In this document: in pieces, positions 24,201-59,272 of the stretch
Numbering within the stretch: the stretch's first letter is position 1
Layout: every line of letters starts with the position of its first letter
DNA from: Cetorhinus maximus
Taxonomy: Eukaryota
Length of the DNA: 64,000 nucleotides
Direction: 5' to 3'
Assembly (NCBI RefSeq): GCF_964194155.1
Contig: NC_135894.1
Span: forward strand, 78,306,001 to 78,370,000
Notes under the pieces: model-generated
Told to the model about the DNA's origin: nothing
Seen by the model: the letters and a program-made list of their open reading frames with translations, nothing else
Databases searched by the model: none
Program-made: the position numbers and the translations under genes

Positions 24201-25108
24201 TGCCCTTCTTCGTTCCCCTAGACCAGGTCTAGAATTGCATCTCGTCTCGTTGGGTTTGTCACTAATTGATTGAAAACATTTTCCTGGACACACTGCATGA
24301 ATTTTTCTCCCTCAGTGCCCCTCATATTGTTTGAATCCCAGTTGATATTAGGATAGTTGAAATCTCCAGCTATTATTGCCCTCTTGTTCTTACAAGCAGA
24401 AATTTGCCTACATATTTGTCCTTCTATCTCCCTTTCACTATTTGGGGGTCTGTAGTATACTCCCAGTAGTGTGACTGCCCCTTTTTTATTTCTAAGCTCA
24501 ATCCCTGGTAACAAGCAGTGCAACATGTGAACTGCAAACTTTTCCACTCTCTCAATGTTCAGCTAGTCTGCGACCATAATAAACGGACCATACATGTTTG
24601 TGCACAATACCCCAGAAGTGTCCAGGGCTCGTACATCCTCAGCAGGTCTCAGATCCCTGACATCTTCCAGGGACAACACAGGCTGCAGGGTTGGCTCCTC
24701 AGGGACAAGGGCTCCCTCCAAAGGACGTGGCTGATGACGCTTGTGCGGTGACCTCAGATTGCTGCTGAGAGAAGGTACAACAAGGCTCATGCTGCTCAAC
24801 CTGGTGGAGCACGCCATAAGGATCCTGAAAATGAGGTTCTGATGTCTCGACGTATCTGGTGGAGCACTCCAGTACACTCCCCAGAGGGTGTCACGCATCA
24901 TTGTGGCTCGCTTTGCATTACACAACCTGGCGAGGCAAAGAAGGGAGGACCTGGATGATGAGGAGATGGAAGAGCTGCACATCTCCTCTGATGAGGAGGA
25001 AGTCAAAGGGGATGAGGGTGATGAGGTCCTGAAGGCGAGGATGCAGGCAATGGGGCCATTGCACCGGAGAGTGCCTGTGAGCCCCTCATTGCCACAGGAT
25101 TCCAGTGA
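21280..25108 (+). pseudogene. Harbinger DDE transposase (HARBI1-like), disrupted by frameshifts and a CR1 insertion
   Basis: VKVTAALNFYGSGSFQ, PQVQGAINCIRV (normally GAIDCTH), FHSLNVQLVCD, LLRDKGS, IIVARFALHNLA and an acidic tail. Split at 21884/24504. Confidence 0.92.
21885..24503 (-). mobile_element. 5'-truncated CR1 LINE (end of APE endonuclease, RT and 3' UTR), about 2.6 kb
   Basis: Minus-strand ORFs contain GVYYRPPNS, GDFNYPNINW, LDLV, PGPDG-like, YRPVSL, QHGF, DFSKAFD, GVPQGSVL, FADD and LVRPQLEY. Tail ttctatggttctata at the left end. Confidence 0.96.
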
Positions 25109-41016: not shown

Positions 41017-41828
41017 ATAGAGTACTAAAAACCACTGTTACTTGTGCTATTTCAAAGCACTCTTTATATAAGGGGGCAGGTCTATGGTTGAGAATCCTCT
41101 ATTAATTCTCAGTTAGTTTTCCACAGTTTTCCCTGTCCTGTGTCTGACTGGTCCATCTTAACTGTATACTGACTGAACCTCAGTCTTTTCAGTTGCTCCT
41201 ACTATATTCTGCCTACCTTTTGTATTATCATTTGAAACAACACTGCTTGGCGTCTGTGATAGGGCCTAATGTAGAATGTAGAATCATAGAATAGGCGCAG
41301 CTCAGGATCGTTCATGCTGACTATGCAACTAGTTCGCTGTCATGTGGCCATCGCCTCTTAGAACAAGATGTAAAATCTGAAGTAAATAAGGTCAGGTGAT
41401 TCAATGAAATTATATTGGCATGAACTTTTAGGTTAGGTTAAAAAATATAAATCGAAATAGGAACATAACAGAAGTAGGTGCAGGAGGATGTCATTTTACC
41501 CTTCAAGCCTGCTTCACCATTCAATAAGATCATGGTCCATCTTCTACTTCAACACCACGCACTGTCTCCATATCCCTTAATTCCATTAGTTTCCAAAATG
41601 ATCAAACAAGGATATTCTAAATACCTTAAATATATGGAAGTGTATAAATTAAGCACTTATCAATGACAATAATTTGATTTGAGATAAATGTAAATATTCG
41701 TTTTCAATACAGAGGATGTGCCACAATCACTCTATCAATGGCATTGCATTGTAAGCTCAAAAGCAATACTCACTTGCATTCTAACTTAACGCAGCATTTA
41801 CACTCTCATATACTTATAATTTTATTTA

Positions 41829-42063
41829 TTATTCAATAAGAATTTGCCTTTGGAATTGCATCTCCATTTCTTCCTCAGGATAGTAAGAAGAGAAATAGGA
41901 TGGATGTTGTCTTAAACTAATACAGCCACCTTTCCAGGGGATGAAATCCTCAAAGCAGCCGTAAATATGGGCAAGTGGTCCATAGCCTTTGTAGTGATAC
42001 ACCACACCTTTATACTCACTTCTACTTCTTTTTGAGAAATTATTAAATAGAGGAAGATATGAC
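41829..42063 (-). CDS. Candidate host gene, terminal coding exon (SYLPLFNNFSKRSRSEYKGVVYHYKGYGPLAHIYGCFEDFIPWKGGCISLRQHPSYFSSYYPEEEMEMQFQRQILIE*)
   Basis: Non-repetitive 235-nt open frame after an ...aataacAG acceptor (42065-42064), phase 2. TAA stop immediately followed by AATAAA signals at 41830-41821. Confidence 0.55.
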
Positions 42064-42222
42064 CTGTTATTAATAATAATTTTTTGCCGACAAATCAAAC
42101 AATATATTTTGTAAAATTCTGCATTAATATAAAAACATGGCCACTTATTAATCACCGTGCCTCAATATTTTGAATTGTACTTTTGTTTGTGTCCCTGTAA
42201 CCTAACACTCATGGCAGGCATT

Positions 42223-42948
42223 GGGCAGAATCTTGTGCTCCCTCTGGTGGTGAGTTTGAAGGCGGGAAGGGCATTTACTTAGGCAGGGTGGCGGCATACT
42301 GGAATCCTGCCTTTTTTCCACTGCCACCAGAATTAAGTTCTGGGCAGGAAGGCCCATGGTTGATCTGCCTGCCCCGCCGCCAAGTGAGGTCCTTAAGTAG
42401 CAATTAATGACTGCTTAATGGTCTCATCCTGCCGCCACTCGTATTATCCCAGTGGCGGGGGGGCCTGTCATCATGCGGCATTCATGAAAGGTAAAGCCGT
42501 GTGGGCCGCTTGTCACTCAGGCAGTCCTTCGATCAAAGGCAATCTGCCTGACGTGGGTGGGGGGGGGGAGTGGGGAGCCAGATCCCTGCTCTTGCTTCTG
42601 ACCCCCTGACCCCTCTCCCGGCGACCCCCATCTGGCCACACCCCCACATTACTTACTTGTAGCCTGGATCCTACGTGATCCTGAGACTCTGGGGGGTGTC
42701 CTTCTGGCAGCAGCTGTGGCCTCCTCATAGGCCAAGTGCAAGAGCTGTTGACCTCTAATTGGTCAGCAGCCCTCGCTGGGTGGGACTTTCACACCTGGGG
42801 CCTTGATTCCAGGGGAAGGCCCAGTGGTGGCCTTGCCACTGCCTGATTGGCATGTGGTTCGGCGGCCTTCCAAAAAAAAGCACTGTGGGTCTCTTGCTGG
42901 CTCTCCAGGTGGCAGGCGAGACCCCCAACGCCATAACAAGATCTCACT
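42223..42948. mobile_element. Diverged Harbinger-type MITE
   Basis: Starts gggcagaatcttg. Body resembles 37718-38466, 48684-49373 and 56870-57530. Right end degenerate. Confidence 0.55.
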
Positions 42949-43230
42949 TGCAGGAGGTGTCTGGAAGATATAATAAGTCTCATAATGTTATTGGAATTTA
43001 TTGTAAAAGAGTGGTATCTGTGTCTGTATGTGTGTGTGTGTGTGTGTATGTGTGACTTAATTGGTTTAAAGGCAGCTGGTTTGAAGGCTTTGATGTAAAC
43101 ATGGTAAACATGGGAGAAGTTTATAATATAATGCATGAAATGACATTTGCATTTTTAAATAAACCAGAGTAGATTGTTTTCAAACGTGCGGTGAAATGTT
43201 TCACCAAGTGAGGTGAAGTTTAGAAACAGT

Positions 43231-43935
43231 GGGGAGAATTTTCTGCGTGTTAGGTGGGTCGGTTGTGAGCGGGGGCAGGCAGGTGTGGAGCCAATCGCTG
43301 TCCGCGATCCGCTGCTCGCCGCCCTTTTACGTGGGCAGGCCAATTAAGGCCCTCCCAGGGTGACGCACGGCCAGTAGCGCTCAGCGCTACCTGTGGTGGG
43401 CAGGGGGAGGAGGGAGAGTCAGGGCCTGCGCTCTTTCACGCATGCATACGAAAGAGTGCAGAAATCTCCCTGAGGCACGGAGCTGCCTCAAGGTGATTAA
43501 GTACGTAATAAAAGTTCAGAAATAATAAAGTTAAAACTTATTTAGACATACTCCCTCATGTGACAGTGTCACATGAGCTGGGACATGTTTATAAATTGTG
43601 CAAAAGTTATTTATTTATTTAATAAAACCTTCAGGAAAACTCATCCTGCCCTTGGATGAGGTTTCCTGAAAAACGCAAAGGCCTCTTGGGCTATTTGCCT
43701 GCCCGCCAACATTAAGGTTGGATGGGCAGCATTGAAAACTACTTTAATTAGGTATTTAATAGCCTTAAAAGGCCATTGACAGTTCTCAGCGGGTGCACAG
43801 CCGCCTCCGGCGCGCACCCGCCAAACATAATATCTAAATGATGTGCGCTGACACCGGGACGCACGCCCGACATCACCGCGCATCATTTTACATGTCCGTG
43901 TGCTGGGCCTGCATGCTGACGTCAAAATTCTGGCC
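43231..43935 (+). mobile_element. Harbinger-type MITE (about 700-bp family)
   Basis: Termini ggggagaatttt / aaaattctggcc. AGT duplicated at 43228-43230 and 43936-43938. Confidence 0.88.
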
Positions 43936-44267
43936 AGTGTGTTTATTTTTCCCAAAGATTACTGGTAAAATTTAGTGCTATGTGAGATTTTTATTATCAG
44001 GAAGATAAAGTCCAAAGACGTAGTGAAACAATGGGAATTTGCATTCAAAGGAGAAAATATGATTAAAGGAGTGAAGGCTGTGTGTAAGGGTAGGCATTTT
44101 TAAGATCTAATAAGTGTGAAAAGCCTTCAGCATCTATGCCTCAAGCTGCTGTTTTCAAAGAACTGAAGTTAAGAAAACTCACTTTGAATTCGACTGGTTC
44201 AGGGCATTGTGTGTCACCTTGCCTGGGTCTTTTGTGTCTTACTGTTGCCTTAATGAAAGTGTAACTG

Positions 44268-44857
44268 GAGGAAAAATGTTCCCCCTGTCAGGGAGGGTTG
44301 TGCGAGGCCAGGCGGGGGCTGGCGCAAACCCGATCGGTGGGTGTCCCGACGTCACCGCGCATCATTTAGATTTCCAGTTTGGCGGGTGCACAGCGCCCGC
44401 CAAACTGTCAAAGGCCTATTGAGGCCTGTTAAAAACTAATTTAAGCTATTAAATGAGCTGCCCGTCCAACCATAATGTTGGCGGGCAGGCGAAGAGCCCA
44501 GGCGGCCTTCACATTTTTCATGAAACCTCATCCACGGGCAGGATGAGGTTTCATGAAGAGTTTTAAAATTCAATAAAAAATTTAAAAACAATTCTTTGAC
44601 ATGTCCCAGCTCATGACAGTGTCACGCATTTTAAAAGTTTTCAATTACTTTATTTCGGTTTTTAAATGTCAAACTGATCTCCCTGAGGCCCACACAGGGA
44701 GCACTCAACACTTCCAGACGAGTATCACGCTGGGTGGGCCTTAATTGGCCCGCCCACGTAAAATGGCGGTGCGGCCCCGATTGGGGGCGCCGATCGGGTT
44801 CGCACCTGCCCCTGCCCGCCCCCGCACAACCCCCCGATGGGGGGAGAATCTTGCCCC
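44268..44857 (-). mobile_element. Harbinger-type MITE (about 700-bp family, reverse orientation)
   Basis: CTG duplicated at 44265-44267 and 44858-44860. About 70-bp imperfect terminal inverted repeats. Family hairpins present. Confidence 0.85.
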
Positions 44858-47800
44858 CTGAGTCGGGGCCATGCTGAAAGACATAAATAAATTATTAATG
44901 AGGGGGAAACGGCTGCTGTCGACGAGTTTTAGGAACAGGATTTGAGAGAATCCCACCTCCAGGAATCTTTAATAACTTACAGCTCATGGCAGCCCTGCAA
45001 TGAGATGGGTGCAGTAAGTCATTACTTTGCAAAGAGAAATTTTATTGACATAATAACACATTGTTTAAGGGCTAAAAATCAGGCTTTATTCACTGAAGCG
45101 TTGAGGCAAACCATATTAATCACATACTCTACATCCAAAATTGGCAAGCAATTCACTGGGTCTGAAACTATTTCCTAATGAGACAGTTTGTTTTTAAGTG
45201 TATAAATTATGTGCCATAAATTTTATAAATGTCTCGTTATTGCAAAGATCTGGAAATGAAAAATATATCACACTTGTTTAGTTGAAATTCAGTTCGCCAT
45301 TTAGCAGCCTTCTTTTAAATAAACTCCTTCAAACCTTTGATCTTCATGCAGTAATTTTCCTCCTCAGGTTAGATCACTAAAGAGTGAACAGCAGTGAGGC
45401 TCTATGTCTTCTGAGACTATACCAAAAATGTATTTAGTAGTAGAAATATGGTGAAGTTTGAATGCGGTTTTCAAGCTTAAGAGCAAATTGCTAGGAGCAA
45501 GCACAGATTCTCACCATGGCTCAGTATTTCAACATTACTTGTGTAAAGGGCATTTTAAAAAGACTCAAAGGATAAGCACACATTATTCATTATTCCTTAC
45601 CTTATAGTAACTGTAAGCAATTTTATTGTCCTTATGCCCATAATGAAATCCCACTTTAAACATATAATCATCACATATAACAATACATTTCCCCAAATTA
45701 TTTTTTATTGCCTAGCATGTCTAATAATGTTAGTCATCAGTCATCTCTTACACACTAACAACTTATTTTAAGTGATTTTAATTTGTTTAATGGGCTTTTA
45801 ACTAGATTTGTTTCCAGCCTGAATGATTGTTTGCCAAAGAACAAATTGGCTATTATTTTTTTTGAAACAACTGATTAAAATTTTGATGCAAAGATAACAT
45901 TTCTTGACAGATTAGTTGTGCATTGATCAGAAGTTACATTTAGTTCAGCATCATGTATCACAAAATTTATCACGCCTCAAGTTCGCCTCAATCACCTCTT
46001 GCCCTCTGCAGAATTAAATATGTTCAGGTGAGTTGGTTGGTCAATGATCCTAATCCAGTCTGAATTCAGGATGTCACAAGAAACATACCAGTGCTGTTCC
46101 ATACTCTTTTTTTTTAAATCAGAATTTGTTTTCTCTTTGTCCCATTTGGCAGAATGGGCAATGTTCTCCCAGGCCTTGTCTTGTGTTAGTTTATGATTGG
46201 ATATTAACTTTAAAAGAATTCCTTTCCTGTCTGCTGGAAATGCCTGTGTTCTGACAGCTGGAAGTCTTTCAAAAACTGCTCGCAGCTAAAAACGTATATT
46301 AAAAGGACATATAGAGATAATAAAAGATAGAAAAAGGAAACCAAAATACAGATATGCGCAATTCCAGACGAACGGTTAGGACATAATTGTCAAGGATGAA
46401 GTGAGGCCCATCAAAATGTTCCTCTAGTACCTCAACTCTACCCAACCCCAGACCCCTCATTCCTTCCATGCCAACCTATGCCCCCCCACCCACCCTCCAT
46501 GGCCCTTTATAGCCCCTATGCCAACTTAGTGCCAACCCAACACTCCTTTCCCTTAAATCTACCATGCCAACTCACCCAGTTTCCACCATGGGCAGACCTC
46601 AGGGCCCATGCTGAGATTAAAGCTCTTAAATGCCTCTTGATGAATTCACTATTTCAAAAAAACACACACTCATTGAAAAACACTCATTCACTACATTTAA
46701 CTTCCTTTAATCCCATATGAAAACAAGTATTGTATTCATAGTCGAATTTCAAACAGTGCATAACCACTTGGAGCTGTCAATCAAACTGAACTGACATGCA
46801 CCCTGCTGTGATAATGATAGGTTGTGAAATCAGTCATGCAACACTAATCATGTAAGAATCATCTTCAGGGTAATGTCAACAGAGTGAAACAGCAAGCACT
46901 AGTGAGGGTCAAATAAGATGCAGATCTAGAGAATTATCCAACCGAAGAAAAAATAGGACTCCAAGACAATTTAACGGGATGTGAAAATAAATTACATAAT
47001 TATAAGGAAAAAGCAAAACAAGCTTCAGTATCACAAGAAATGGTGCAATTAATCACTGCAATATCAATAGAGTTGGAAAATAAATTTGTGGTACCTTGTC
47101 TTGTCTTCCTTATTTTACAGGCTCTTCAGCAGAATCTCCATTTGTTAAATTTGTTTATGGTATCTGTATGGTTATTTGTATCTGGTGGATTAACAACTAC
47201 AAACCATGCAATAGAGCTTCAGCAGTTATCCCTCTGGGTCTCATTAAAAGTGGAAGAGATACAAATCTGTCAGTTAATATCTTTTGAAATAATTTTTCCA
47301 TTGTATTATGCATCGTTGTGCCTGTGTGAATTTTGTCTCCGTGTTTTGTTTTCTTGAGCATAAGAAACCAATAAAAAGAAGCAGATTAATTAATAATCGT
47401 TCAAATGTATCTTAGCGCATCAGAAGATTTCAAAGCACAAATGAATTACTTTTAGAGTACAATGACCATTATGCAGGCAATTAATTGCAACTGACTAGCA
47501 GGTTCAACCATTATAAAATATTTGTATTCTAAGGCTATAAAACACGCATCTTGACCAATATTCTATTTATATTAATAGGGATTGTCCAAACTGTTTATAT
47601 TAATCTTTGTCGATTATAGTTGGCAGCACAATTATTCTGGAGCTTTTTATATTTGATGGGTTGGGGAAACTGCAGTATAAATGGGGAATAAGATCAATAA
47701 TCTGACAATATATCTCATTCTGTAAACATTGTAAAACCAACTCCAGGAGGCAAACTTACACTATTTTGGACTAACATTGACAATTGTATAACTGCAGCTC

Positions 47801-48344
47801 TACAAGATAAAGTTTGAAAAGCTGTGTTGGACCACTGGGAAATATGTTCATGTTACCAATGAGGGGAATTGCTCTATCCTAACATGTTAAAAACCAACCT
47901 ACACGATTGGAACACAGGGTACATACTTTACTTTGCCTGGCCAGACAGGGATGTGAGGCTGGTGGTACAGTTCATTTCTACTAACTTTAAATCACAGAAT
48001 CATATAACAGAGACAGAGGCCATTCAGCCCATGGCTCACATACTCCCTCTCTGAAAGAGCTACAAATTATTCCCAGCCCACTGCTTTTTTCCCATGCCCT
48101 GGATTTTTTTCCTTTCCAAGTTTAAGAGTTTTGCACCTCTTTAAAGCAGTTACTGCTGCCATACTGCCTGCATCCTTAAGGCACTATCATAATCTGAGCA
48201 TTGGACTTCCACACAAATTTTAATCCTCTGCTTAAAAAGGGCAAAGTGTAGCTCAGATGTTCATTGTTGTTAGAGTGTGTACAGATCAGATTTTTCTTCA
48301 CATTTTTGTCAAAAAAAAAATCAAATGTAGAACAAACAGTTCAC

Positions 48345-48394
48345 CATTCTGTCCCAAAATAGGCCATCAATTTCTTCATGTTAAAGTTCCAATA
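48345..48394 (-). CDS. Candidate host gene, internal exon (YWNFNMKKLMAYFGTE+TG)
   Basis: tttgttttcAG acceptor and GTGAAC donor. 50 nt, only frame 0 is open. Phase 0 to 2 joins the terminal exon as TG|G = Trp. Confidence 0.5.
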
Positions 48395-48683
48395 CTGAAA
48401 ACAAATAGACGACTTGCAGGTCAGCATTATTCTTTTCTATAATGTGAACTTTTTTATGATGAATTGCACCTAAACTTCTCTAGGTTTGACTGTGACCAGG
48501 GAAGTTTCCAGGCACCATGCTGGGAGTAGGAGAACACTTGGCAGTGGTTTCAAATTAGCCCTGGGCCGGTGCTGTAATTTTTAAAGAGTGCAAATGGGGA
48601 TGCAACTGACTGGATTGTTCTACAGACAACCAGCCTGGACCTGATGGGCCAATTGGCCTCCTTTTGTGCCTTAATGACTCTAT

Positions 48684-50757
48684 GGCCAGGATTTTACCAG
48701 ATCTTTGGAGATGGGGTTGGAGGCAGGAGGGCTAGTAAAATGACAGCAGAAGGGGTCAGGAAGGAAGAATTGCACAGGCAATTTCAAAAGGCAGAAATGG
48801 CAGTAGCTTAGTCAACCACTAAGAGAGTGTCCGGCGGCAATCAGTTGCCAACAGGTTAGTCCTCCTGGTGGCCACTGCTGGGACTGCAAGTGAAAGAAGG
48901 CAGCGCAATGGAAAGACACCACCTCCCAACTAGGCAAGTGGGATCTGGGGGCATTGGAGCCAGTCAGGCAGGGCCCCGTCAGCGGGTGGGTGTCGGTGAG
49001 GGCAGGTGGTGATGTTGCCGCGGGGGCGCAGAGGAGACCCTCCATGTGCACAGAGTGCCTGAATAGGAAGTGTCCACTCTGCCCCAGGCTTGCAGGAAGG
49101 CTGCCAGAGTTCATCAGGTCATCTCCCCGCATGGCGGAAGGCTCAACCCTCCCTTCCCCCAACACTGCTATTAAAATGCCAGTAGCGACAGGAAGAAACC
49201 CTTAATTGGCCACTTAAGTAGCTTAATTGGCCTTTGTGTGGGAGGACCAAACTCCACCTTCCCGGCTGCTGGTAAAATGGCATGAGGGTGGGAAGAGGAT
49301 GGGCACTCCACCCCCATGCCTTCCCTCACCTCCCCACCTCTTACTCCGTCTCCAGAGGGCTGGTGAAATCTAGTCAGCCTGACGTCGGTAGTGGGGAAAA
49401 TTCTAGAGTCCATTATAAAAGATTTAATTGCTGAGCACTTGGAAAACAGTGGCAGAATCAGACAGAGTCAGCATGGATTTACGAAAGGGAAATCATGCTT
49501 GACAAATCTACTGGAAATTTTCGAGAAAGTAACTAATAGAGTTGATGAGGGGGAGCCAGTGGATGTGGTTTATTTGGACTTTCAGAAGGCTTTCGACAAA
49601 GTCCCACATAAGAGACTGGCGTGTAAAATTAAAGCGCATGGGATTGGGGGTAGTGTATTGAGATGGATAGAAAACTGGTTGACAGACAAGAAACAAAGAG
49701 TAGGAATAAACAGGTCTCTTTCCGAATGGCAGGCAGTGACTAGTGGGGTACCACAGGGGTCGGTTCTGGGACCCCAGCTAGTCATAATATATATTAATGA
49801 TTTAGATGAGGGAACTAAATGTAATATCTCCAAATTTGCAGACGACACAAAGCTGGGTGGGAGGGTGAGCTGTGAGGGGGATGCAGAGATGCTTCAGTGT
49901 GATTTGGACAAGCTGTGTGAGTGGGCAAATACATGGCAGATGCAGTGTAATGTGGATAAATGTGAGATTATCCACTTTGGTAGCAAAAACAAGAAGGCAG
50001 ATTATTATCTGAATGGCTATAAATTGAGAGAGGGGAATGTGCAACGAGACCTGGGTGCCCTCGTACACCAGTCGCTGAAGGTAAGCATGCAGGTGCAGCA
50101 GGCGGTAAAGAAGGCAAATGGCCTTCATAGCGAGAGGATTCGAGTACAGGAGCGGAGATGTCTTGCTGCAATTATACAGGGCCTTGGTGAAACCACACCT
50201 GGAATATTGTGTGCAGTTTTGGTCTCCTTATCTGAGGAAGGATGTTCTTGCTATAGAGGGAATGCAGAGAAGGTTTACCAGACTGATTCCTGGGATGGCG
50301 GCACTGACATATGAGGAGAGATTGAGTCGGTTAGGATTATATTCGCTGGAGTTCAGAAGAATGAGGGGGATCTCATAGAAACCTATAAAATTCTAACAGG
50401 ACTAGACAGGGTCGATGCAGGAAGGATGTTTCCGATGGTGGGGGAGTCCAGAACCAGGGCCACAGTCTGAGGATACGGGGTAAACCATTTAGGGCTGAGA
50501 TGAGGAGAAATTTCTTCACCCAGAGAGAGGTGAGCCTGTGGAGTTTGCTACCACAGAAAGTAGTTGAGGCCAAAACATTGTATGTTTTCAAGAAGGAGTT
50601 AGATATAGCTCTTGGGGCGAAAGGGATCAAAGGATATGGGGAGAAAGCGAGAGCAGGCTATTGAGTTGGATGATCAGCCATGATCATAATGAATGGCGGA
50701 GCAGGCTCGAAGGGCCAAATGGCCTACACCTGCTCCTATTTTCTATGTTTCTAGGCC
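48684..50757. mobile_element. Harbinger-type MITE whose right TIR is interrupted by a CR1
   Basis: Left end ggccaggattttacc. Right end ggtgaaatctag|CR1|gcc. TAT duplicated at 48681-48683 and 50758-50760. Confidence 0.75.
49374..50749 (+). mobile_element. Young 5'-truncated CR1 LINE (RT domain and 3' UTR)
   Basis: 307-aa ORF with QHGFTKGKSCLTNL, DFQKAFDKVPH, GVPQGSVLGP and FADDTK. One frameshift near 50118. Tail ttctatgtttct. TCTAG duplicated at 49369-49373 and 50750-50754. Confidence 0.96.
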
Positions 50758-51339
50758 TATGACTCATTGAAAGCCATCACTCCCACTTAAGAGCATTATT
50801 TTGTGGAAAGGAGGGAGTCTGTTGCCATCTTGCAAGAAAGATTTTTAAAATCACCCTGACACTTGTTGCAAATAAAATAAATTGTTATTTTTAATGAACC
50901 ACCATTTTACTTACACCTAAGCAGAAACTGCATGGTTTTCCTTCTGTAAATCAGAAATGCTGCAAGTGTGTGTATGCACTGTTATTGGTGATGTCCACAA
51001 ATTTGATTGATTCCAGCACAGGTACAACAGGTATGAAAATGTGTTGAACAACCAAAAATTCAATATCAGTTGTTGAAAGAGAGAACAGCACTAAACAATC
51101 ATAGCTGTTTATAATATTAGCCAGTAACATTAGTTACAGCACAGCAGGGTAACAGTTGTGCTATTAGATGAGTAATCCAGAGTCCTGGACTAATGATTGA
51201 GTAACCTGAGTTCAAATCCCACTGCAGCAGTTGGGGAATTTAAATTTGGTTAATTAATTTTAAAAATAAACCTGAAATTAAAGCTATTAGTCATCTGGTA
51301 GTACAGAACTTGAGTATTGCTGAAAAAAGAGACATATTT

Positions 51340-51373
51340 TGTCAAAGCTTTTTGTCTTGCACTCATCAGGACA
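51340..51373 (-). ncRNA. Degenerate minimal hammerhead ribozyme motif
   Basis: TGTC-CTGATGA-GTGCAAGAC-AAAA-AGCTTT-GACA: stem I TGTC/GACA intact, GAAA box mutated to AAAA. Confidence 0.5.
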
Positions 51374-51838
51374 ATTCGCAGGAATACCAATGTCAAGGCA
51401 AACAACTATTGCATTCTGCAATTGGACATTATTTGCTGAATAATCCTCAATGTGCTAAGAATTAAGCTGACAATAAATTTAAGATTGTCAGTGTGACATA
51501 TTTGCGTGTACTGGAAGCTACATATATTAATACACAGGGCCCTGTTCTTTGCAGACAGAAAGAACATGTACACACATTTTGCCTGCTTCAGCTAAACAAA
51601 ATAAGTGGCAGCCATTCACTGGTTCATTCCCCAGGCCAATGTCTTGACCAATCAGAGTCAAGCTGCCTGGTTTAAATTTCAATCAATTCTTGGTAGTTAA
51701 CTGTCAGTCACCATCAACTGCTGCATTTTCCATGGCCATGCCTTTACCAATCAGAATCCACTTGCCAACCAATCAGCATTATCTTTTCATACAGTACAAA
51801 TTTGTTGTTTCCCGTGTTATTGGCATTTACGTCAGAAT

Positions 51839-51872
51839 TGTTTTGATGAGCGCAAGACGAAAAGCTTTGACA
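51839..51872 (+). ncRNA. Degenerate minimal hammerhead ribozyme motif
   Basis: TGTT-TTGATGA-GCGCAAGAC-GAAA-AGCTTT-GACA: GAAA intact, first C of CTGATGA mutated. Confidence 0.5.
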
Positions 51873-52959
51873 AAAAAATCTCTTATTCCAGCAATAAAAA
51901 AGCTATTAACAATGATCCAACAATCAGTCTATCGAATTTTCATAAAAACCCATCTGGTTCACTATTGTCCGTTAGGGAATGTTATCTGCAGTCTTTACCT
52001 TGTCTGGCCTGTAAGTGACACCAGACCCACAGCAATGTGGTTGACTCTTAACTGCCCTTTGAAATGGCCTAGGAAGCCTCCCAGCTGCCCAATGGGCAAT
52101 AAATGCTGGGCTTGCCATTAATGACGACATCCGGTGAATGGATAAAAGAATGGTTACAGTACTAGCCACCATTCATCATAATACTAATTATCAACATTAT
52201 GTATAATGGTTCTTACAATATCCATTATAATATTAACCAGAAAAAACAGTACCAATACCAACTAAAAAGATTTATCATATTAATCTGCAACATTAGCTAC
52301 AGTAATAAGCGCCATTACGATCCCCGTAGAGACCAATAACTTTTAAAAAGAAATATGAGTTTCCGAATGACTGGCGGAAAGAAGCAGATGAGAAGATTTC
52401 ATGCTTTAAGAGTTTTACTATGACAAACAAACTAAAATCAACATAGACTAAACAGCACTTAACAGGCAACTAATATAGCAAACTGCAGAAAATTACTAAT
52501 TAATTCAACTGGAAAAACTTGATGACCTATTTGTATGTTATTCTGTGCTCTCAGAAGATATGTAAGCATTATAGATTAAGTCAAAACCCTGCTTGGCATT
52601 TCAGCAGGCTTCCTTCTCCCTTCCATTTCAGGGTGGACCTTTGTAAGTCCCTTAACTCAGTCTTCTGAGCGTCTGCAAATTGACTAACAAACACAAGGTC
52701 CACTCTGGTGACTCCTTGGTTCTTAAATCTCCAATAGTCCTGTTCATTCTGTCTTCTTCTTTATGAACAGAAAACTGACTATTACAAGCATTCAGCTCTC
52801 ACAGTTGTAGCTTTTCTGCTCCTACATCCAGCCTCTCTCTCTCTCTCTTTCTCACTCTCTTCCTCTCTTCCTCTCTCCAGGACTCTGAGAGTCTGTATCC
52901 AGAAAGACCAATGTCCCTCTTTTTGGTCAAGGTGTGAAAACTGGCATTTGCTTTTCTAT

Positions 52960-53659
52960 GGGCAGAATTTTCCTCCCGTTGGGGGGGAAGTTCAGGAGCG
53001 GGTATGTGGAGACGCGTCTCCGATCGGCGCCCCCAATCGGGGGCTCGCTGCCATTTTACATGGGCGGGCCAATTAAGGCTCGCCCAGCATGACATCCACA
53101 AGGGAGCGCTATGCACTCCCTGTGCGGGCAGGGGGTTATTACCTGAGCCGAGAATGCACTCCATCGCGCATGTGCGCGAAAGAGCACACTCATCTCCCTG
53201 AGGCTAAGTGCTGCCTCAGGGAGATCAGCGCCAAATTCAAAAATGTTTCAAACAGAAAAAAAAAATTCCCCTGACATGTCCCCTCATATGACACTGTCAC
53301 ATGAGTAGGGCCATGTCCATCAATTTTAGTTACACTTTTATTGGATTTTTACAAACCTACATGAAACCTCATCTCGCCCGTGGATGAGGTCTCATGCTTT
53401 TTCCAATGTCCACCAGGGCTCCCAGCCTGCCCGCCAACCTTCAAGGTTGGACGGGCAGGTCCGCTAATTACGTTAATTACTTTGTCAATGGCCTCAATTG
53501 GCCATTGACAGGTCAACGGGTGCACAGCTAATTCGAGAGAATTGAGAATTGAAATGAGGAGGGGTGACATTGGGAGTTCCGCCTGACATCATCCTGTATC
53601 ATTTTACAAGTCGGCGAGCGGGCCCCGCCCCCCCCCCCCCCCACCGGGAAATCCTGGCC
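52960..53659 (+). mobile_element. Harbinger-type MITE (about 700-bp family), first of a tandem pair
   Basis: Termini gggcagaatttt / aaatcctggcc. TAT at 52957-52959 and 53660-53662. Confidence 0.88.
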
Positions 53660-53662
53660 TAT

Positions 53663-54140
53663 TTGGAGAATTTTCTCCCCATCGGGGGAGTTGGGCAGGA
53701 ATGTGCGCAGGCGGGCATGCAGCCGATCACCGCCCACAATCCTGCCGAAGAAGAGCGCGGAAATCTCCCTGAGGCAGTTCCGTGCCTCAGGGAGATTAGT
53801 TTGATTTTTAAAAAATTTTAATAAAGAAAAATAAGATTTTTTAAGACATGTCCCCTCATGAGCTGGGACATGTTAATGAATTTTATTAAAAATTTTTATT
53901 AAACTTTACAAACCTTCATGAAACCTCAGCCCGCCCTTGGATGAGATTTCATGATAAATGCAAAGGCCACCTTAAGGTTGGACGGGCAGCTCAGTTAATT
54001 AGTTTAATTGGTATTTAATGGCCTTAATAGGCCTTTGACAGTTCGGCGGGTGCATGCCGAACTGAAGATCTTAATGACGTGTGGTGACGTCGGGACACAC
54101 GCCCGACATCACTGCGCGTCATTTTATGCAAAATCTGGCC
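53663..54140 (+). mobile_element. Harbinger-type MITE (internally deleted), second of a tandem pair
   Basis: Termini ttggagaatttt / aaaatctggcc, followed by TAT at 54141-54143. Confidence 0.85.
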
Positions 54141-54215
54141 TATAGGTTTTGGTCTGGGGCTCTTTGTCCATGACAACCAAATCACATGGGCCTGTCTCCT
54201 GGACAGAATTAATAT

Positions 54216-55010
54216 TGTTATGACAAAGCAGTTGGTAAAGGCTAAGTTATTTAAAACCCCAGCGGAAACTTTAAACGACTGTCATAATCTATTTTCAATT
54301 GGTGTGTTTGAGATGCAGCTCTGAATTCAGGAATGAAACCACCAAGCCTCCAGAGGTTTTTATATAAATTAAACTAAACTAAACATTTATTAATTTAACA
54401 ATGAATTAAACACACGCACATGTCTACAAATTACTACCTTAATAACTTTTAAATAAATCCACAAATTATTCACTCCTAGGTAAACCTTCACCAAGGCAAC
54501 AACAACCCATAGACTTTAAATAGACACCAGGCAAAGCACATTTCATCTTATGCATTCAAAATGAGGTTCCTTCACACAGTTGTAGGCTTACAGGCTGCTT
54601 AGTTATTACATGCCTATGACTTACACACACAAAACTCTTCTGTATATACCTAGCCTTCCCTGTGAATGTAAATTCTCATTGTATCACTCAGGCACTTTGA
54701 ACTCCACCTCTTCTAACAATAAAACCCCTTTCATAGTACCAATTTTATTAGTAACATAAAATATTGCTTGGTGTCTCCTAGCTAGGTGCAAGATTTCACC
54801 CCCAGTCTTTGCATGGTTTATTCAATAAAATGCAAATGTGTCCTCTATCTTACTGTTTAACATCTCAAAACTACTATACATCAAAGCACCCAGACTAGCT
54901 GGTTTTAATCCAATTAAGATACACACTGACACCCACAGACACTTGCCCTACTACAAGCCCAATTTAAAATAATTTCCGATAATATTCTATACATTAGAGT
55001 CTTTATGACA
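54216..55010 (-). mobile_element. Solo LTR-like element
   Basis: TGTTA...TGACA termini. Flanks atat/gtat (4-bp TSD, one mismatch). tttatt (minus-strand AATAAA) near the left end. Confidence 0.6.
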
Positions 55011-55267
55011 GTATGATCTCCATCCTCCCTCATTTCAAAACATTCTTTCACCTTAAGGTAAAGAAAACATTTTAATACATGACTGTCTTATAAAGACTCA
55101 CCTGTTTAACACATCCTTTATATCACTAAAAAGCAACATCAGTTATATAATGCTTATTGTGATATCCTGTACTATATGAGCCAGCGACATCTGATATGAT
55201 CTTTCTGGAAATCTCACTTATATGTAGTTTATCCCTTCACTGCTTACTGATAAGGAGCTGAGATATG

Positions 55268-56696
55268 GGGCCAGATTTTCTCCTCCTGCACCTGCCCAGA
55301 ATTGAGTCAGGAATTGTTAAAATGAGGCCCATGGGGCTGAAATTTCAAACTTACCCTGCCATTCCCAACTCATGCCATCTTCCCCTAGCCAGGAAATGTG
55401 TCAGGAGTGATCCTGCACTCAGGTCCTGTGATGGTGAGGTTGCCAAAATAACATCCTGGGGGAAATTTGACTGTATTTTTGTTATGATGGGAGGGATTCA
55501 GAGGCGTGTGGGAACCCCATCAGGTAAGTCAGTTCATGGACCTTGGGGGGAAGCCTGCTGTTGAGTCAGGAAGGTTTTTGACAGGTAAGTTTAAAAGATC
55601 TTGCCAGTGCCCCCTCATATCCCCCTTGCTCCCTCCATGTCCCCTCATATCCCCCATGCTCCCTCCATGCCCCCTCATACCCTCCATGCTCCCTCCATGC
55701 CCCCTCATACTCCCATACCCCTTCCATTCCCCATGCTGCTTCCACACCCTTTCCATTACCCCCATGCCCCAATCATCCTCCGTACCCATTTTCTCAGTAT
55801 CCTCTATGCACAGAACCAATGAGCCATTGGCAGATTTGGAAATGCTCCTGAAACTGATACAATGAGCAAAGAGGCTTAGAAAATCTTTGAAAAGGCATTT
55901 CATTTTGCAATTTCATAAAAGTGTTAATCAACCACAGCCATTCACAATATCAATGACAAAACTTTAATCCTCTTAACACCTCATAATCTTACTCAAATAA
56001 AAAACATGTATTGAAGCACCACAGCAAAGAAAGAAAACCTTATTACAACATGATAAATGTGTCAATCAAATAAACTGAGCAATCCCCTTGAAGCTGTGTA
56101 AATAGACCCCTGCTAAGCTGAGTTCATATTCATTCTTGGAACTCAGTGAAGCATTCATAATGTGGCCATCTGGAAAAATAGATGACTGGCCATCTGTTCA
56201 AACTGATTCTGTTCATACAGTTTCCAGATGGCTTTGTTATGAATGCTTGACTGAGCTCCAAGACTGCCTAATGGATTCTGCCCTGTAGGCAATGTTGACA
56301 CAACTAGAAGCAGAGTGCTAGCTTTGTTTGATTGACACTTTCATGATATTGTAATAAGTTTTTTCTGTCTTTGATACGGTTTTCAAATGCCTGTTTGTTT
56401 ATTTGGGGGGAGCATGGGGTTTGCAAGAGGCATGGAGTGGGCATGGATTTCTTAACAACCATATAGAGGATTACTAAATCAACGTCCCAGTGCACCCAGG
56501 CAGGCCCTCTAACCAGCCTGCCTTGCCAACTGACTCTGCCTCAGCCCTGCATAGAGAGGTGGTAGACCTGAACCTTGTCTGTCCATGTCTCATGGAAACA
56601 TTACAATTGGAGTGGGAGGACCTGACGGAGTTGGGATTGTGAAGTCAGGAAATGGAAGGACTCATGGTTCCTGAAACTGAGAGGAAGATCCAGCCC
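55268..56696. mobile_element. Harbinger-type foldback MITE, about 1.4 kb
   Basis: Termini gggccagattttc / gaagatccagccc. ATG duplicated. Internal long inverted repeats centred near 56195. Confidence 0.75.
55608..55745. repeat. 30-bp minisatellite (gccccctcatatcccccatgctccctccat), about 4 units
   Basis: Direct repeat visible in the sequence. It yields the repetitive PPCPLISPML and GMRGHGGSM peptides in the ORF track. Confidence 0.85.
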
Positions 56697-56864
56697 ATGA
56701 TTTTTTAAAATGTTACAAGCCAAGATTCCAAAAAGCCACTTCCTATCTTTACTCAGAAAACTTGAATTTGGTCATAATGGATGAGGTTTAGATGAAAATA
56801 TATTATGCAAATGTGGTTATTTGTGGTAATACATTGTATCTATTCTATTGCATCTCCCACATAG

Positions 56865-57530
56865 GGTTCGTTTAATGGGGCACTGCAGTCCACACCCATC
56901 CAACTAAAAGTCAGGGGAGACTGCTCACGATCCTGAGGGCTGGCGACCAATCAGATTGGCCGGCAGCTCTATAGTTCCACCAGCGCCAGTGGGAGTGAAT
57001 GTTGGGAATACAGGCAGTCCTCACTATGCCGAGGAGCCCAGGTAAGTCCAGGGCAGGGGTCTAGGCGATGAGATTGTGGAGGGGTTGGAGGGATAGGTGA
57101 GGGGAGAGGGGCGTGGTTAATGAGAGGCCAGGTTAAAGAGGCTGAGGAGAAGGGTTAATGGTGTGTATGACCGGGGGGTGCCCCCAAAGGAAGGTCCCCC
57201 ATGCTTGCCTGACACTTGCCATGCAGCTAAAGCCGCCAGGATTCCTGCATGGCATGCTCACCACCTCCCCCCACCCCCACCCCGCCACGGGTAAAATACC
57301 TGCGGTGGCGGAATGAGGCCCTTAAATGGCCATTATCTGGCTAATTAAGGGCTTCAATAGGCTCAAGAATGGGCAGGCTGAGGCAGGCTGCCCAACATCC
57401 TGCCCACACCCCCCTGTAAAATTTCATACAGGTCAGGGAAAGTGGGATGCAACAGGAAGGCCACCCACTGGATTTTAGATGCTCTTCTGCCTTCAAACCC
57501 ATTGGTAGGGGGAGTGTAAAATCCAGCCCT
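56865..57530. mobile_element. Diverged Harbinger-type MITE
   Basis: Right end gtaaaatccagccc. Body similar to the 37718 and 48684 elements. Left end unclear. Confidence 0.5.
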
Positions 57531-57895
57531 TTGTATCCAGACTACTTGAGCTCCTATAATATCAAACTTTAAGTATTGGAGAGAAGCTACTTCTATTCTT
57601 CCAATGGAAGCTTTTTTGGCTTCTCAATTGAAGTGAGGAAGCTCTAGCTCCTGAATTTCTTCTCAACTAATCTGTATCCTGCATTGTATCCAGATTAGCC
57701 CTGGTACCCGGATTAGCCCTGGTACTATCCTGGCACTCTAGTTCCTACATAACACCCAGACCAGACTGATCAAGCTCCAACCTTGCAGTCGACTAATTCA
57801 ACTGCTCCTTTAGGGCCTGAAAATCCTGTATGACAGATGAATTACTCCAGTTTCTGCTTGGTAGCTGGCTGATTACAGTCCCGTCACTACACCCA

Positions 57896-58341
57896 GGCCG
57901 GGAGTTTGCTTGGCCTGCTGGAGCGGAATAGGAGATGCAGGTGGGGGTGGAGTGAAAAATTGGGAGGGAGGATGGAGAGGTGATGAGCCCTTTGCCTCCC
58001 CACGGCCTTGGCATTTTATTAGTTGGGGGTGAGGGGGGAAAAGGTGGACGACAGCCTTCCCACCCAGAGGCCAATTGGATGAATCCTGGTGGCCTCCTGT
58101 GGGCTCAATTAGTGGGTGGGTCCTCCAGATCAAGCACTTCCTGGCCAACTGCAGGGCAATAGCTACCTGGGCAGCATTAGCTCATCCCTGCCCTCACCTC
58201 TTCCCCCTCCTCTCCAGGACCTGCCCAACTGTTCCAAACAACTCCCGACCCAACTGACCTTGTTCTGAGGGCGTCGTCATGTTGCTTTTCCCGAGTGGGT
58301 GCAGTCCCAGCAGTGACCACCACTCAAACAAAATCCCAGCC
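57896..58341. mobile_element. Harbinger-type MITE
   Basis: Termini ggccgggagttt / aaaatcccagcc. CCA duplicated. Confidence 0.6.
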
Positions 58342-58554
58342 CCAGGCTACCCTTGCTCCTAAAATGCAACTCTAATTACTCTAATGCCTTTGTGCCATTG
58401 TTAGAAAAAAACATGTTTTACGATAAAGCATTGCCTATTGAAATAAACTGTCATGCACAAAATATATTTTCTGGAATCTATTGATTTTTGAACTGACTGA
58501 TTACCCTAAAATTACCATGAACGATGTCGATATAATTTTAGGTTTACTTCTTAC

Positions 58555-58600
58555 CTCTGCTCTAACAGTTGTGTCCCAGAAATTCTTGAAGTTGCAGATT
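58555..58600 (-). CDS. Candidate host gene, internal exon (a+ICNFKNFWDTTVRAE)
   Basis: ttctgtttAG acceptor and GAG|GTAAGA donor. 46 nt, phase 2 to 0. Confidence 0.5.
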
Positions 58601-59138
58601 CTAAACAGAATCATTTAAATGATCAAACAGCACTAAAGGCCACTGACTTTTAAGCAAAACATTTTGTATTTACAGAGCTGTTTGATGTAACTTCACAGTG
58701 GTTTCAGTAATATTGCTCCAAGTTCCTAAATATTTCATGCTGAAAACACAAAGATCATGATCTAAGCAAACACATTTACAAGATAATGCCTCAAACCTTC
58801 CTATAATCTTGGTTTTAATGCCATTCTATCTCTTTTTTCAACAAAATTAATTACAAGCAATAAAATGTTCCTTTTTCATTAAAGACAACAATATCTAAAA
58901 TTAATTCTCAGGAAACAGACTCTGACCTATATGAAGAACTTCCTTCTGAGCTTAAATCTGCAATTTCCTGTTCATCATGTTGCTATGTTTGGTTAAATAA
59001 TTTGCACTAATAATGAATAAATTCTAAAGTTAAAGTTGAAAAGTTACCATGTGGAAAAAAAAACTTTGCCAATTATTATTTAGCCTTTAGGCTGAATATG
59101 TTGTAATTTTAAAAAAACAATTAAAAGAAAAATGGTAC

Positions 59139-59272
59139 CTTTGGCTGAGAGGTACATGTGGAGAGTGAAGGAAAGAAACACAAGATGTTATTTGAAATGG
59201 TTGTAGATTCCTCAATCTGCTGGAAAAGTGTTGGTGGGCAGGGGTGGAATGTCCTCCATTTCGTGCGGACAT
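59139..59272 (-). CDS. Candidate host gene, first coding exon (MSARNGGHSTPAHQHFSSRLRNLQPFQITSCVSFLHSPHVPLSQ+AG)
   Basis: ATG with G at -3 and an in-frame upstream TAA. AAG|GTACCA donor. Ends in phase 2, giving AG|A = Arg with the next exon. Confidence 0.4.

What the first reader, a model, noticed from the sequence alone, without database searches (positions are those of the whole stretch)
41821..59272. Hidden four-exon, 154-aa minus-strand gene among the repeats
Seen: four non-repetitive segments (59272-59139, 58600-58555, 48394-48345, 42063-41829) joined by GT-AG introns whose phases chain exactly (2, 0, 2) into one 465-nt open frame: MSARNGGHSTPAHQHFSSRLRNLQPFQITSCVSFLHSPHVPLSQRICNFKNFWDTTVRAEYWNFNMKKLMAYFGTEWSYLPLFNNFSKRSRSEYKGVVYHYKGYGPLAHIYGCFEDFIPWKGGCISLRQHPSYFSSYYPEEEMEMQFQRQILIE*. 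The 50-nt exon is open in only that frame. Inference: a small, aromatic-rich uncharacterised protein. The W..TVRAE...W.YL pattern loosely recalls small ciliary/testis proteins of the C20orf85/C2orf50 type, but that is only an impression. Exon 1 and two of the donors are weak.
Basis: partly seen in the sequence, partly recalled or inferred. Interest (0 to 1): 0.72.

Follow-up and report, generated by a model that had tools for sequence, protein, structure and literature searches.

The report
Probably chance exon chain, shark desert
Four short single-copy stretches in a long gene-poor region of a shark genome can be spliced on paper into a 154-residue protein, but no related protein was found and such chains arise readily by chance, so it is likely not a gene, although exon-like base composition leaves roughly a one-in-five chance that it is.

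Summary
Coordinates, GT-AG ends, phases 2/0/2 and the 465-nt open frame are correct, and all four segments are single-copy. Phase chaining itself carries no weight: 5,167 such chains exist in the same interval. No homologue of exon 1 or exon 4 was found in collections that do hold RefSeq models of 13 sharks, including an identical copy of a neighbouring gene. Exons 2 and 3 were too short for those searches. The C20orf85/C2orf50 idea fails: no SNYG motif, different spacing and intron positions. In favour: all four segments show the GC rise between AT-rich flanks of real exons nearby; under a filter passing 12 of 17 control exons only this locus and one real gene give such a chain among 144 tiles. 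Without thresholds the effect shrinks: 19 of 129 non-genic tiles score as high. The locus lies in a ~500-kb desert between C3orf38-like genes and an EphA receptor. No RNA evidence was obtained. Verdict: chance chain 0.6, real unannotated coding gene about 0.22, non-coding or differently spliced exons about 0.15.

The parts
59139..59272 (-). Candidate exon 1 (134 nt, ATG at 59272, donor AG|GTACCA); starts about 140 nt from the end of a repeat at ~59410; a second frame is open for 61-66 codons
   Evidence: donor top 0.5% of background and mid-range of 25 control donors under the shark-trained model, below all controls under the generic matrix; no homologue
58555..58600 (-). Candidate exon 2 (46 nt), strongest site of the model: donor AG|GTAAGA; weak acceptor; an alternative in-phase donor gives 58600-58516
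   Evidence: (donor at 99.9th percentile)
48345..48394 (-). Candidate exon 3 (50 nt), least exon-like segment (almost no GC rise); replaceable in phase by 55425-55355, 46285-46089 or 46243-45996
41829..42063 (-). Candidate exon 4 (235 nt, 77 codons plus stop), A-rich acceptor with 41% pyrimidines
   Evidence: no homologue; single-sequence model mean pLDDT 40.5
41821..41830 (-). Two overlapping AATAAA hexamers at and just after the stop codon (possible poly(A) signal, or AT-rich chance)
   Evidence: sequence; 18 of 390 unique desert frames of >=77 codons have AATAAA within 40 nt of the stop
55355..55425 (-). Alternative third exon (71 nt, donor AG|GTAAGT) that gives the best-scoring chain of the tile with exons 1, 2 and 4

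Best explanation
The four segments are single-copy DNA in a gene desert, and their joining into one reading frame is likely a chance chain rather than a gene. How it arises (inferred): old repeat-free islands of the desert are AT-rich with local GC patches; AG and GT are everywhere, so a reader free to choose start, ends and a short bridging exon can nearly always build an open chain. Under this reading nothing is spliced or translated in this way, and the islands are neutral or regulatory DNA upstream of the EphA receptor gene.
For: Chains are abundant: 5,167 in this interval; 52 of 56 desert tiles hold a chain with a better generic splice score. With a model trained on 25 shark exons plus GC rise, 19 of 129 non-genic 20-kb tile-strands equal or beat the claimed chain. 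No homologue: exon 4 in 42-135 aa and 136-2000 aa proteins, by phmmer over 1.84 billion representatives (1 hit, a bacterial-type tandem-repeat protein), exon 1 in 78-2000 aa proteins; Pfam 0 of 9 pieces at E<=10. Positive control: the neighbouring HTR1F gene is in that collection with 13 named shark members. The three acceptors score 1.2, 2.4, 2.4; only 1 of 25 control acceptors is lower. Exon 4's residue make-up is at the median of 232 non-coding frames, and only 6% of 35 coding windows score as low (weak model). Exon 3 is interchangeable. The piece of organism B over exon 4 differs at 25 of 613 letters, no fewer than AT-rich intron pieces (19 of 576, 16 of 491, 20 of 448).
Against: All four segments have flank GC in the lowest 0.5-6% and a GC rise in the top 2-23% of unique desert positions, as most control exons do. 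With flank GC<=0.34 and rise>=0 (12 of 17 controls pass) only 2 of 144 tile-strands hold a >=465-nt chain: a real zinc-finger gene and this locus; at <=0.36, 10 of 144. The tile's best chain reuses exons 1, 2 and 4 and is beaten by only 2 of 129 non-genic tiles. All six sites lie in the top 6.5% of background sites and inside the control range. Exons 2 and 3 could not be searched in the large protein collections, and a real 26-residue control exon also found nothing in PDB. A testis-only gene can be missed by annotation (own knowledge).
Confidence: 0.6

Rival explanations
1. A real, unannotated small protein-coding gene, restricted to or fast-evolving in sharks, transcribed on the minus strand away from the EphA receptor. 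It would make a 154-residue aromatic-rich protein with no confidently predicted fold, most plausibly in germ cells, where short fast-evolving genes are common and sampling is thin (inferred; tissue and function untested).
For: Exon-like composition of all four segments; 2 of 144 tiles under a control-derived filter; strong exon 2 donor; a real EphA donor AG|GTACTA resembles the exon 1 donor; AATAAA at the stop, seen in 18 of 390 comparable frames; exon-bearing pieces of organism B differ at 59 of 1,790 letters against 119 of 2,665 elsewhere (P=0.051). Mammals keep a testis gene, CSNKA2IP/CKT2, in this interval (position recalled).
Against: No annotated relative of exon 1 or 4 in any of 13 sharks or elsewhere; low-end acceptors; the flank filter is not general, only 1 of 8 motif-found EphA exons passes <=0.34; threshold-free rank 19 of 129; the lower divergence in organism B vanishes against AT-matched pieces; no unmasked CpG-island window between -258 kb and 65 kb; no paralogue in G000.
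Confidence: 0.22
2. Some segments (most likely exon 2, perhaps 1 and 4) are real exons, but of a non-coding or differently spliced transcript, or of a decayed old gene; the 154-codon frame comes from picking a bridging exon 3.
For: Exons 1, 2 and 4 recur in the best chains while exon 3 is swapped; a non-coding RNA would explain the blank protein searches; exon 4 scores like non-coding frames.
Against: No RNA evidence; no Rfam match in the window; a decayed gene should have intact relatives in other sharks, and none was found for exons 1 and 4.
Confidence: 0.15
3. A divergent SNYG-module microtubule inner protein of the C20orf85/C2orf50 kind that binds tubulin inside ciliary doublets (a sub-case of the coding-gene rival).
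For: Only a loose tryptophan/glutamate/tryptophan pattern and one match to the short Mn syntax [TS]-[TS]-X4-[YF], which is too short to mean much.
Against: No [ST]-N-X-X-[ILVY]-G, even in relaxed form; Pfam LLC1, SPMIP1 and FAM183 match other contigs, not this locus; no significant local alignment to 7 matched stretches of those genes (shuffle P 0.08-0.93); spacing 16 versus 8 residues and two introns inside a stretch that is one exon in the LLC1-family gene.
Confidence: 0.03

Closest known systems
SNYG-module microtubule inner proteins: C20orf85 (CIMIP1, Pfam LLC1 PF14945), C2orf50, FAM183A/CFAP144 (PF14886), SPMIP1 (PF22589) (PMC10973386; passages and section 11 read)
   Same: Small size (recalled) and a loose pattern of a tryptophan, a glutamate and a later tryptophan with aromatic residues, seen in this genome's LLC1-family exon.
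   Different: No SNYG motif; spacing and intron positions differ; the genome's own members lie on C13, C6, C12 and C10.
CSNKA2IP / CKT2 (PMC2677865; search listing, abstract start and three passages seen)
   Same: Testis-specific gene on mouse chromosome 16; its place between C3orf38 and EPHA3 in mammals is recalled, not shown by a call.
   Different: At least 276 residues in mouse; no sequence link found, since exon 1 and exon 4 searches returned no such protein.
Spurious ab initio gene models in vertebrate gene deserts
   Same: Canonical but weak splice sites, short bridging exons, no homologue, interchangeable exons.
   Different: This locus ranks above most desert tiles for exon-like base composition.

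Membership tests
SNYG-module MIPs (C20orf85/C2orf50 type) | SNYG motif [ST]-N-X-X-[ILVY]-G (PMC10973386 section 11) | tested here: not met
   No match, also none for [ST]-X3-[ILVY]-G.
SNYG-module MIPs (C20orf85/C2orf50 type) | Match to Pfam LLC1, SPMIP1 or FAM183 profiles | tested here: inconclusive
   No match at this locus or for single-exon pieces; the spliced product was not scanned, and short exons are insensitive (weakest real LLC1 exon E=6.3).
SNYG-module MIPs (C20orf85/C2orf50 type) | Spacing and exon layout of the N-terminal tryptophan helix as in the LLC1-family gene | tested here: not met
   8 residues within one exon in L023 versus 16 residues across two introns here.
SNYG-module MIPs (C20orf85/C2orf50 type) | SNYG-associated helix and structural likeness | tested here: inconclusive
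   Exon 4 alone folds at pLDDT 40.5 with three strands and no helix of 4 or more residues; too poor for a fold search.
SNYG-module MIPs (C20orf85/C2orf50 type) | Location in motile cilia or sperm tail; co-expression with ciliary genes | not testable with these tools
   Needs RNA and protein data.
Other MIP modules (NWE, PYG, GFG, Mn repeat) | Signature motifs | tested here: not met
   NWE, PYG, GFG patterns absent; one Mn-like heptamer only (the PYG and GFG patterns were my own simplification).
Protein-coding gene | Canonical splice sites and open frame | tested here: met
   but common by chance.
Protein-coding gene | Homologues in related species | tested here: not met
   Exons 1 and 4: with control; exons 2 and 3 not searchable there.
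Protein-coding gene | Spliced transcript | not testable with these tools
   The four runs laid behave as genomic DNA: uniform cover of introns and repeats.
Protein-coding gene | Frame-preserving conservation, dN/dS below 1 | tested here: inconclusive
   Only per-piece difference counts for organism B; positions of changes were not obtained.

The most novel reading that the evidence does not exclude
A real four-exon gene in the C3orf38-EPHA3 desert, missed by all 13 shark annotations seen here, encoding a 154-residue protein with no detectable relative: a shark orphan or de novo gene, probably of the germ line, at the address where mammals keep the unrelated testis gene CSNKA2IP.
Probability: 0.2. 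Interest if true: 0.55.

Novelty: not a real feature. Interest (0 to 1): 0.2.

Why it matters
If it is chance, the lesson is methodological: exact phase chaining is no evidence for a gene in vertebrate DNA, whereas flank composition carries some signal. If it is real, it would be an orphan gene in a slowly evolving lineage where few are described, and a sign that shark annotations miss small spliced genes. One RT-PCR or RNA-seq look-up decides it.

Tried and rejected
A site-by-site view of organism B over the exons was not obtained, so indel phase and dN/dS stay open. ESM Atlas gave no result. JGI metagenomes: 174 pattern matches, 0 confirmed. PDB: exon 4 only a superoxide dismutase at E=0.97, rejected as chance; exons 1-3 nothing, but a real control exon also nothing. 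P0001 (E=5e-11) rejected: score summed over 8 units of a tandem repeat. Possible paralogue on C12 (E=4.7): an exon-2-like hit 1.4 kb upstream looked promising but has no splice sites and no exon-4 partner; rejected. L067 lies in a repeat-like stretch. Codon model: poor separation, synonymous term uninformative. (only this chain in 505 kb) used thresholds set from the claimed exons and is circular; replace it. One search's control sites were partly chosen by score; one search adds 8 exons found by motif. The 17 controls came from score-filtered lists, which favours AT-rich flanks. Fold search and complex prediction not run (model too poor, no binding claim). The bacterial promoter scan is irrelevant. 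Earlier findings: no look-alike in other genomes, none nearby. Papers: C3orf38 + EPHA3 + synteny gave 0; some searches gave listings only, none on this locus; supplements not read.
Full report
Observation. Each is single-copy in the 4-Gb genome G000. Two overlapping AATAAA lie at the stop.

Setting. The window lies in about 500 kb without another recognised gene. On one side are HTR1F, an Rlf/ZNF292-type zinc-finger gene (ZNF654 by recalled gene order), a DEP + DUF547 gene and two DUF4518/C3orf38 exons, the last 235 kb away. On the other side is an EphA receptor starting about 225 kb beyond the window (EPHA3 by recalled gene order). In the window, 133 unique frames of >=60 residues gave one Pfam match over cut-off, a retroelement endonuclease at 24221-24562; Rfam gave none. 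The flanking desert was screened by exon prediction, not exhaustively by Pfam.

Is the chain more than chance? By frame and splice sites alone, no. With sites at least as good as the weakest claimed, 5,167 four-exon chains of >=465 nt exist in this interval on this strand, and 50 of 56 desert tiles hold one or more; 52 of 56 hold one with a better generic score. A 50-nt segment open in exactly one frame is the commonest case (816 of 1,769).

Base composition gives some support. All four segments have AT-rich 80-nt flanks (lowest 0.5-6% of unique positions) and higher GC inside (top 2, 7, 23 and 3%). Real exons nearby show a GC rise too (25 of 25 above the mean of their flanks). Thresholds taken from the claimed exons left this chain alone in 505 kb, but that is circular. 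Over 1.46 Mb, with thresholds judged on 17 control exons, chains of >=465 nt occur in 66 of 144 tile-strands (flank <=0.39; 17 of 17 controls pass), 10 of 144 (<=0.36; 14 pass), 2 of 144 (<=0.34; 12 pass: the zinc-finger gene and this locus). Those controls came from score-filtered lists; of 8 EphA exons found by motif only 1 passes <=0.34. In a threshold-free model trained on all 25 controls, the claimed chain (27.1) is equalled or beaten in 19 of 129 non-genic and 8 of 14 genic tiles; the best chain of its own tile (34.2; exons 1, 2, 4 with another third exon) is beaten in 2 of 129. A window holds about six such tile-strands and the scan reads many windows, so a per-tile rate of 2-15% is modest evidence. 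Site by site, the donors sit at 52%, 96% and 12% of the control range; the acceptors are above only 1 of 25 controls, though within the top 3-7% of background.

Relatives. Exon 4 found nothing among proteins of 42-135 or 136-2000 residues and, by phmmer over 1.84 billion representatives, only a tandem-repeat artefact. Exon 1 found nothing. The control matters: the neighbouring HTR1F is in the collection, identical to a RefSeq protein of Cetorhinus maximus, in a cluster of 13 shark species. So no annotated shark protein in that collection shares exon 1 or exon 4 in these frames at the sensitivity of those searches. Exons 2 and 3 are under the minimum query length there; their Pfam and PDB searches were blank, as was a real control exon in PDB. 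A second organism, about 96% alike, covers exons 1, 2 and 4. Exon-bearing pieces differ at 59 of 1,790 letters and others at 119 of 2,665 (P=0.051), but AT-matched intron pieces differ as little, and the exon 4 piece (25 of 613) is not lower. A possible paralogue on C12 was followed and dropped.

The ciliary reading. PMC10973386 (passages and section 11 read) defines C20orf85 and C2orf50 by the SNYG module, [ST]-N-X-X-[ILVY]-G plus a helix. The motif is absent here. LLC1, SPMIP1 and FAM183 profiles match other contigs, and their matched stretches do not align to the candidate above shuffles. In this genome's LLC1-family gene the tryptophan-bearing stretch is one exon with 8 residues between the acidic residue and the second tryptophan; here there are 16 and two introns. 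Exon 4 folds without confidence (pLDDT 40.5).

Reading. Shown: the sequence facts, single-copy state, exon-like composition, blank homology for exons 1 and 4, absent SNYG motif. Inferred: that the chain is most likely an accident of free choice among single-copy islands (0.6); that it is a real shark-restricted coding gene (0.22, of which ciliary SNYG-type about 0.03 is counted apart); that some segments are exons of a non-coding or otherwise spliced RNA (0.15). These odds are my judgement from the calls above, not a computed result. No RNA data and no codon-level comparison were obtained; either would settle it.

Noticed in passing
L048:4510-4697 and L050:4385-4926 (+; 255 and 235 kb before the window): Two exons 20 kb apart both match DUF4518 from profile position 41; the second runs on into a long charged, coiled-coil-like stretch. 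Suggests a tandem duplicate or internal repeat of C3orf38 in this shark.
   Followed up: partly
L045:7352-7501 and L044:1744-1995 (-), further exons to about 312 kb before the window: A gene with DEP and DUF547 domains between the zinc-finger gene and C3orf38; recalled as like zebrafish zgc:152951 and absent from the human locus.
   Followed up: partly
window 24221-24562 (-); L002:975-2693 (+): Retroelement remains: an endonuclease fragment in the window and a 573-codon reverse-transcriptase frame with a CpG-rich profile just beyond it.
   Followed up: no
L101-L102, minus strand (about 391-398 kb from window start, inside EphA intron 3): Highest-scoring non-genic exon chains of the 1.46 Mb; translations look non-coding by eye.
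   Followed up: partly
G000 C6:34.87 Mb (L070) and C12:23.44 Mb (L071): Two loci match SPMIP1 (PF22589) over its cut-off; possibly two paralogues.
   Followed up: no
window 55608-55732: 30-nt tandem repeat, 4.2 copies, C-rich.
   Followed up: no
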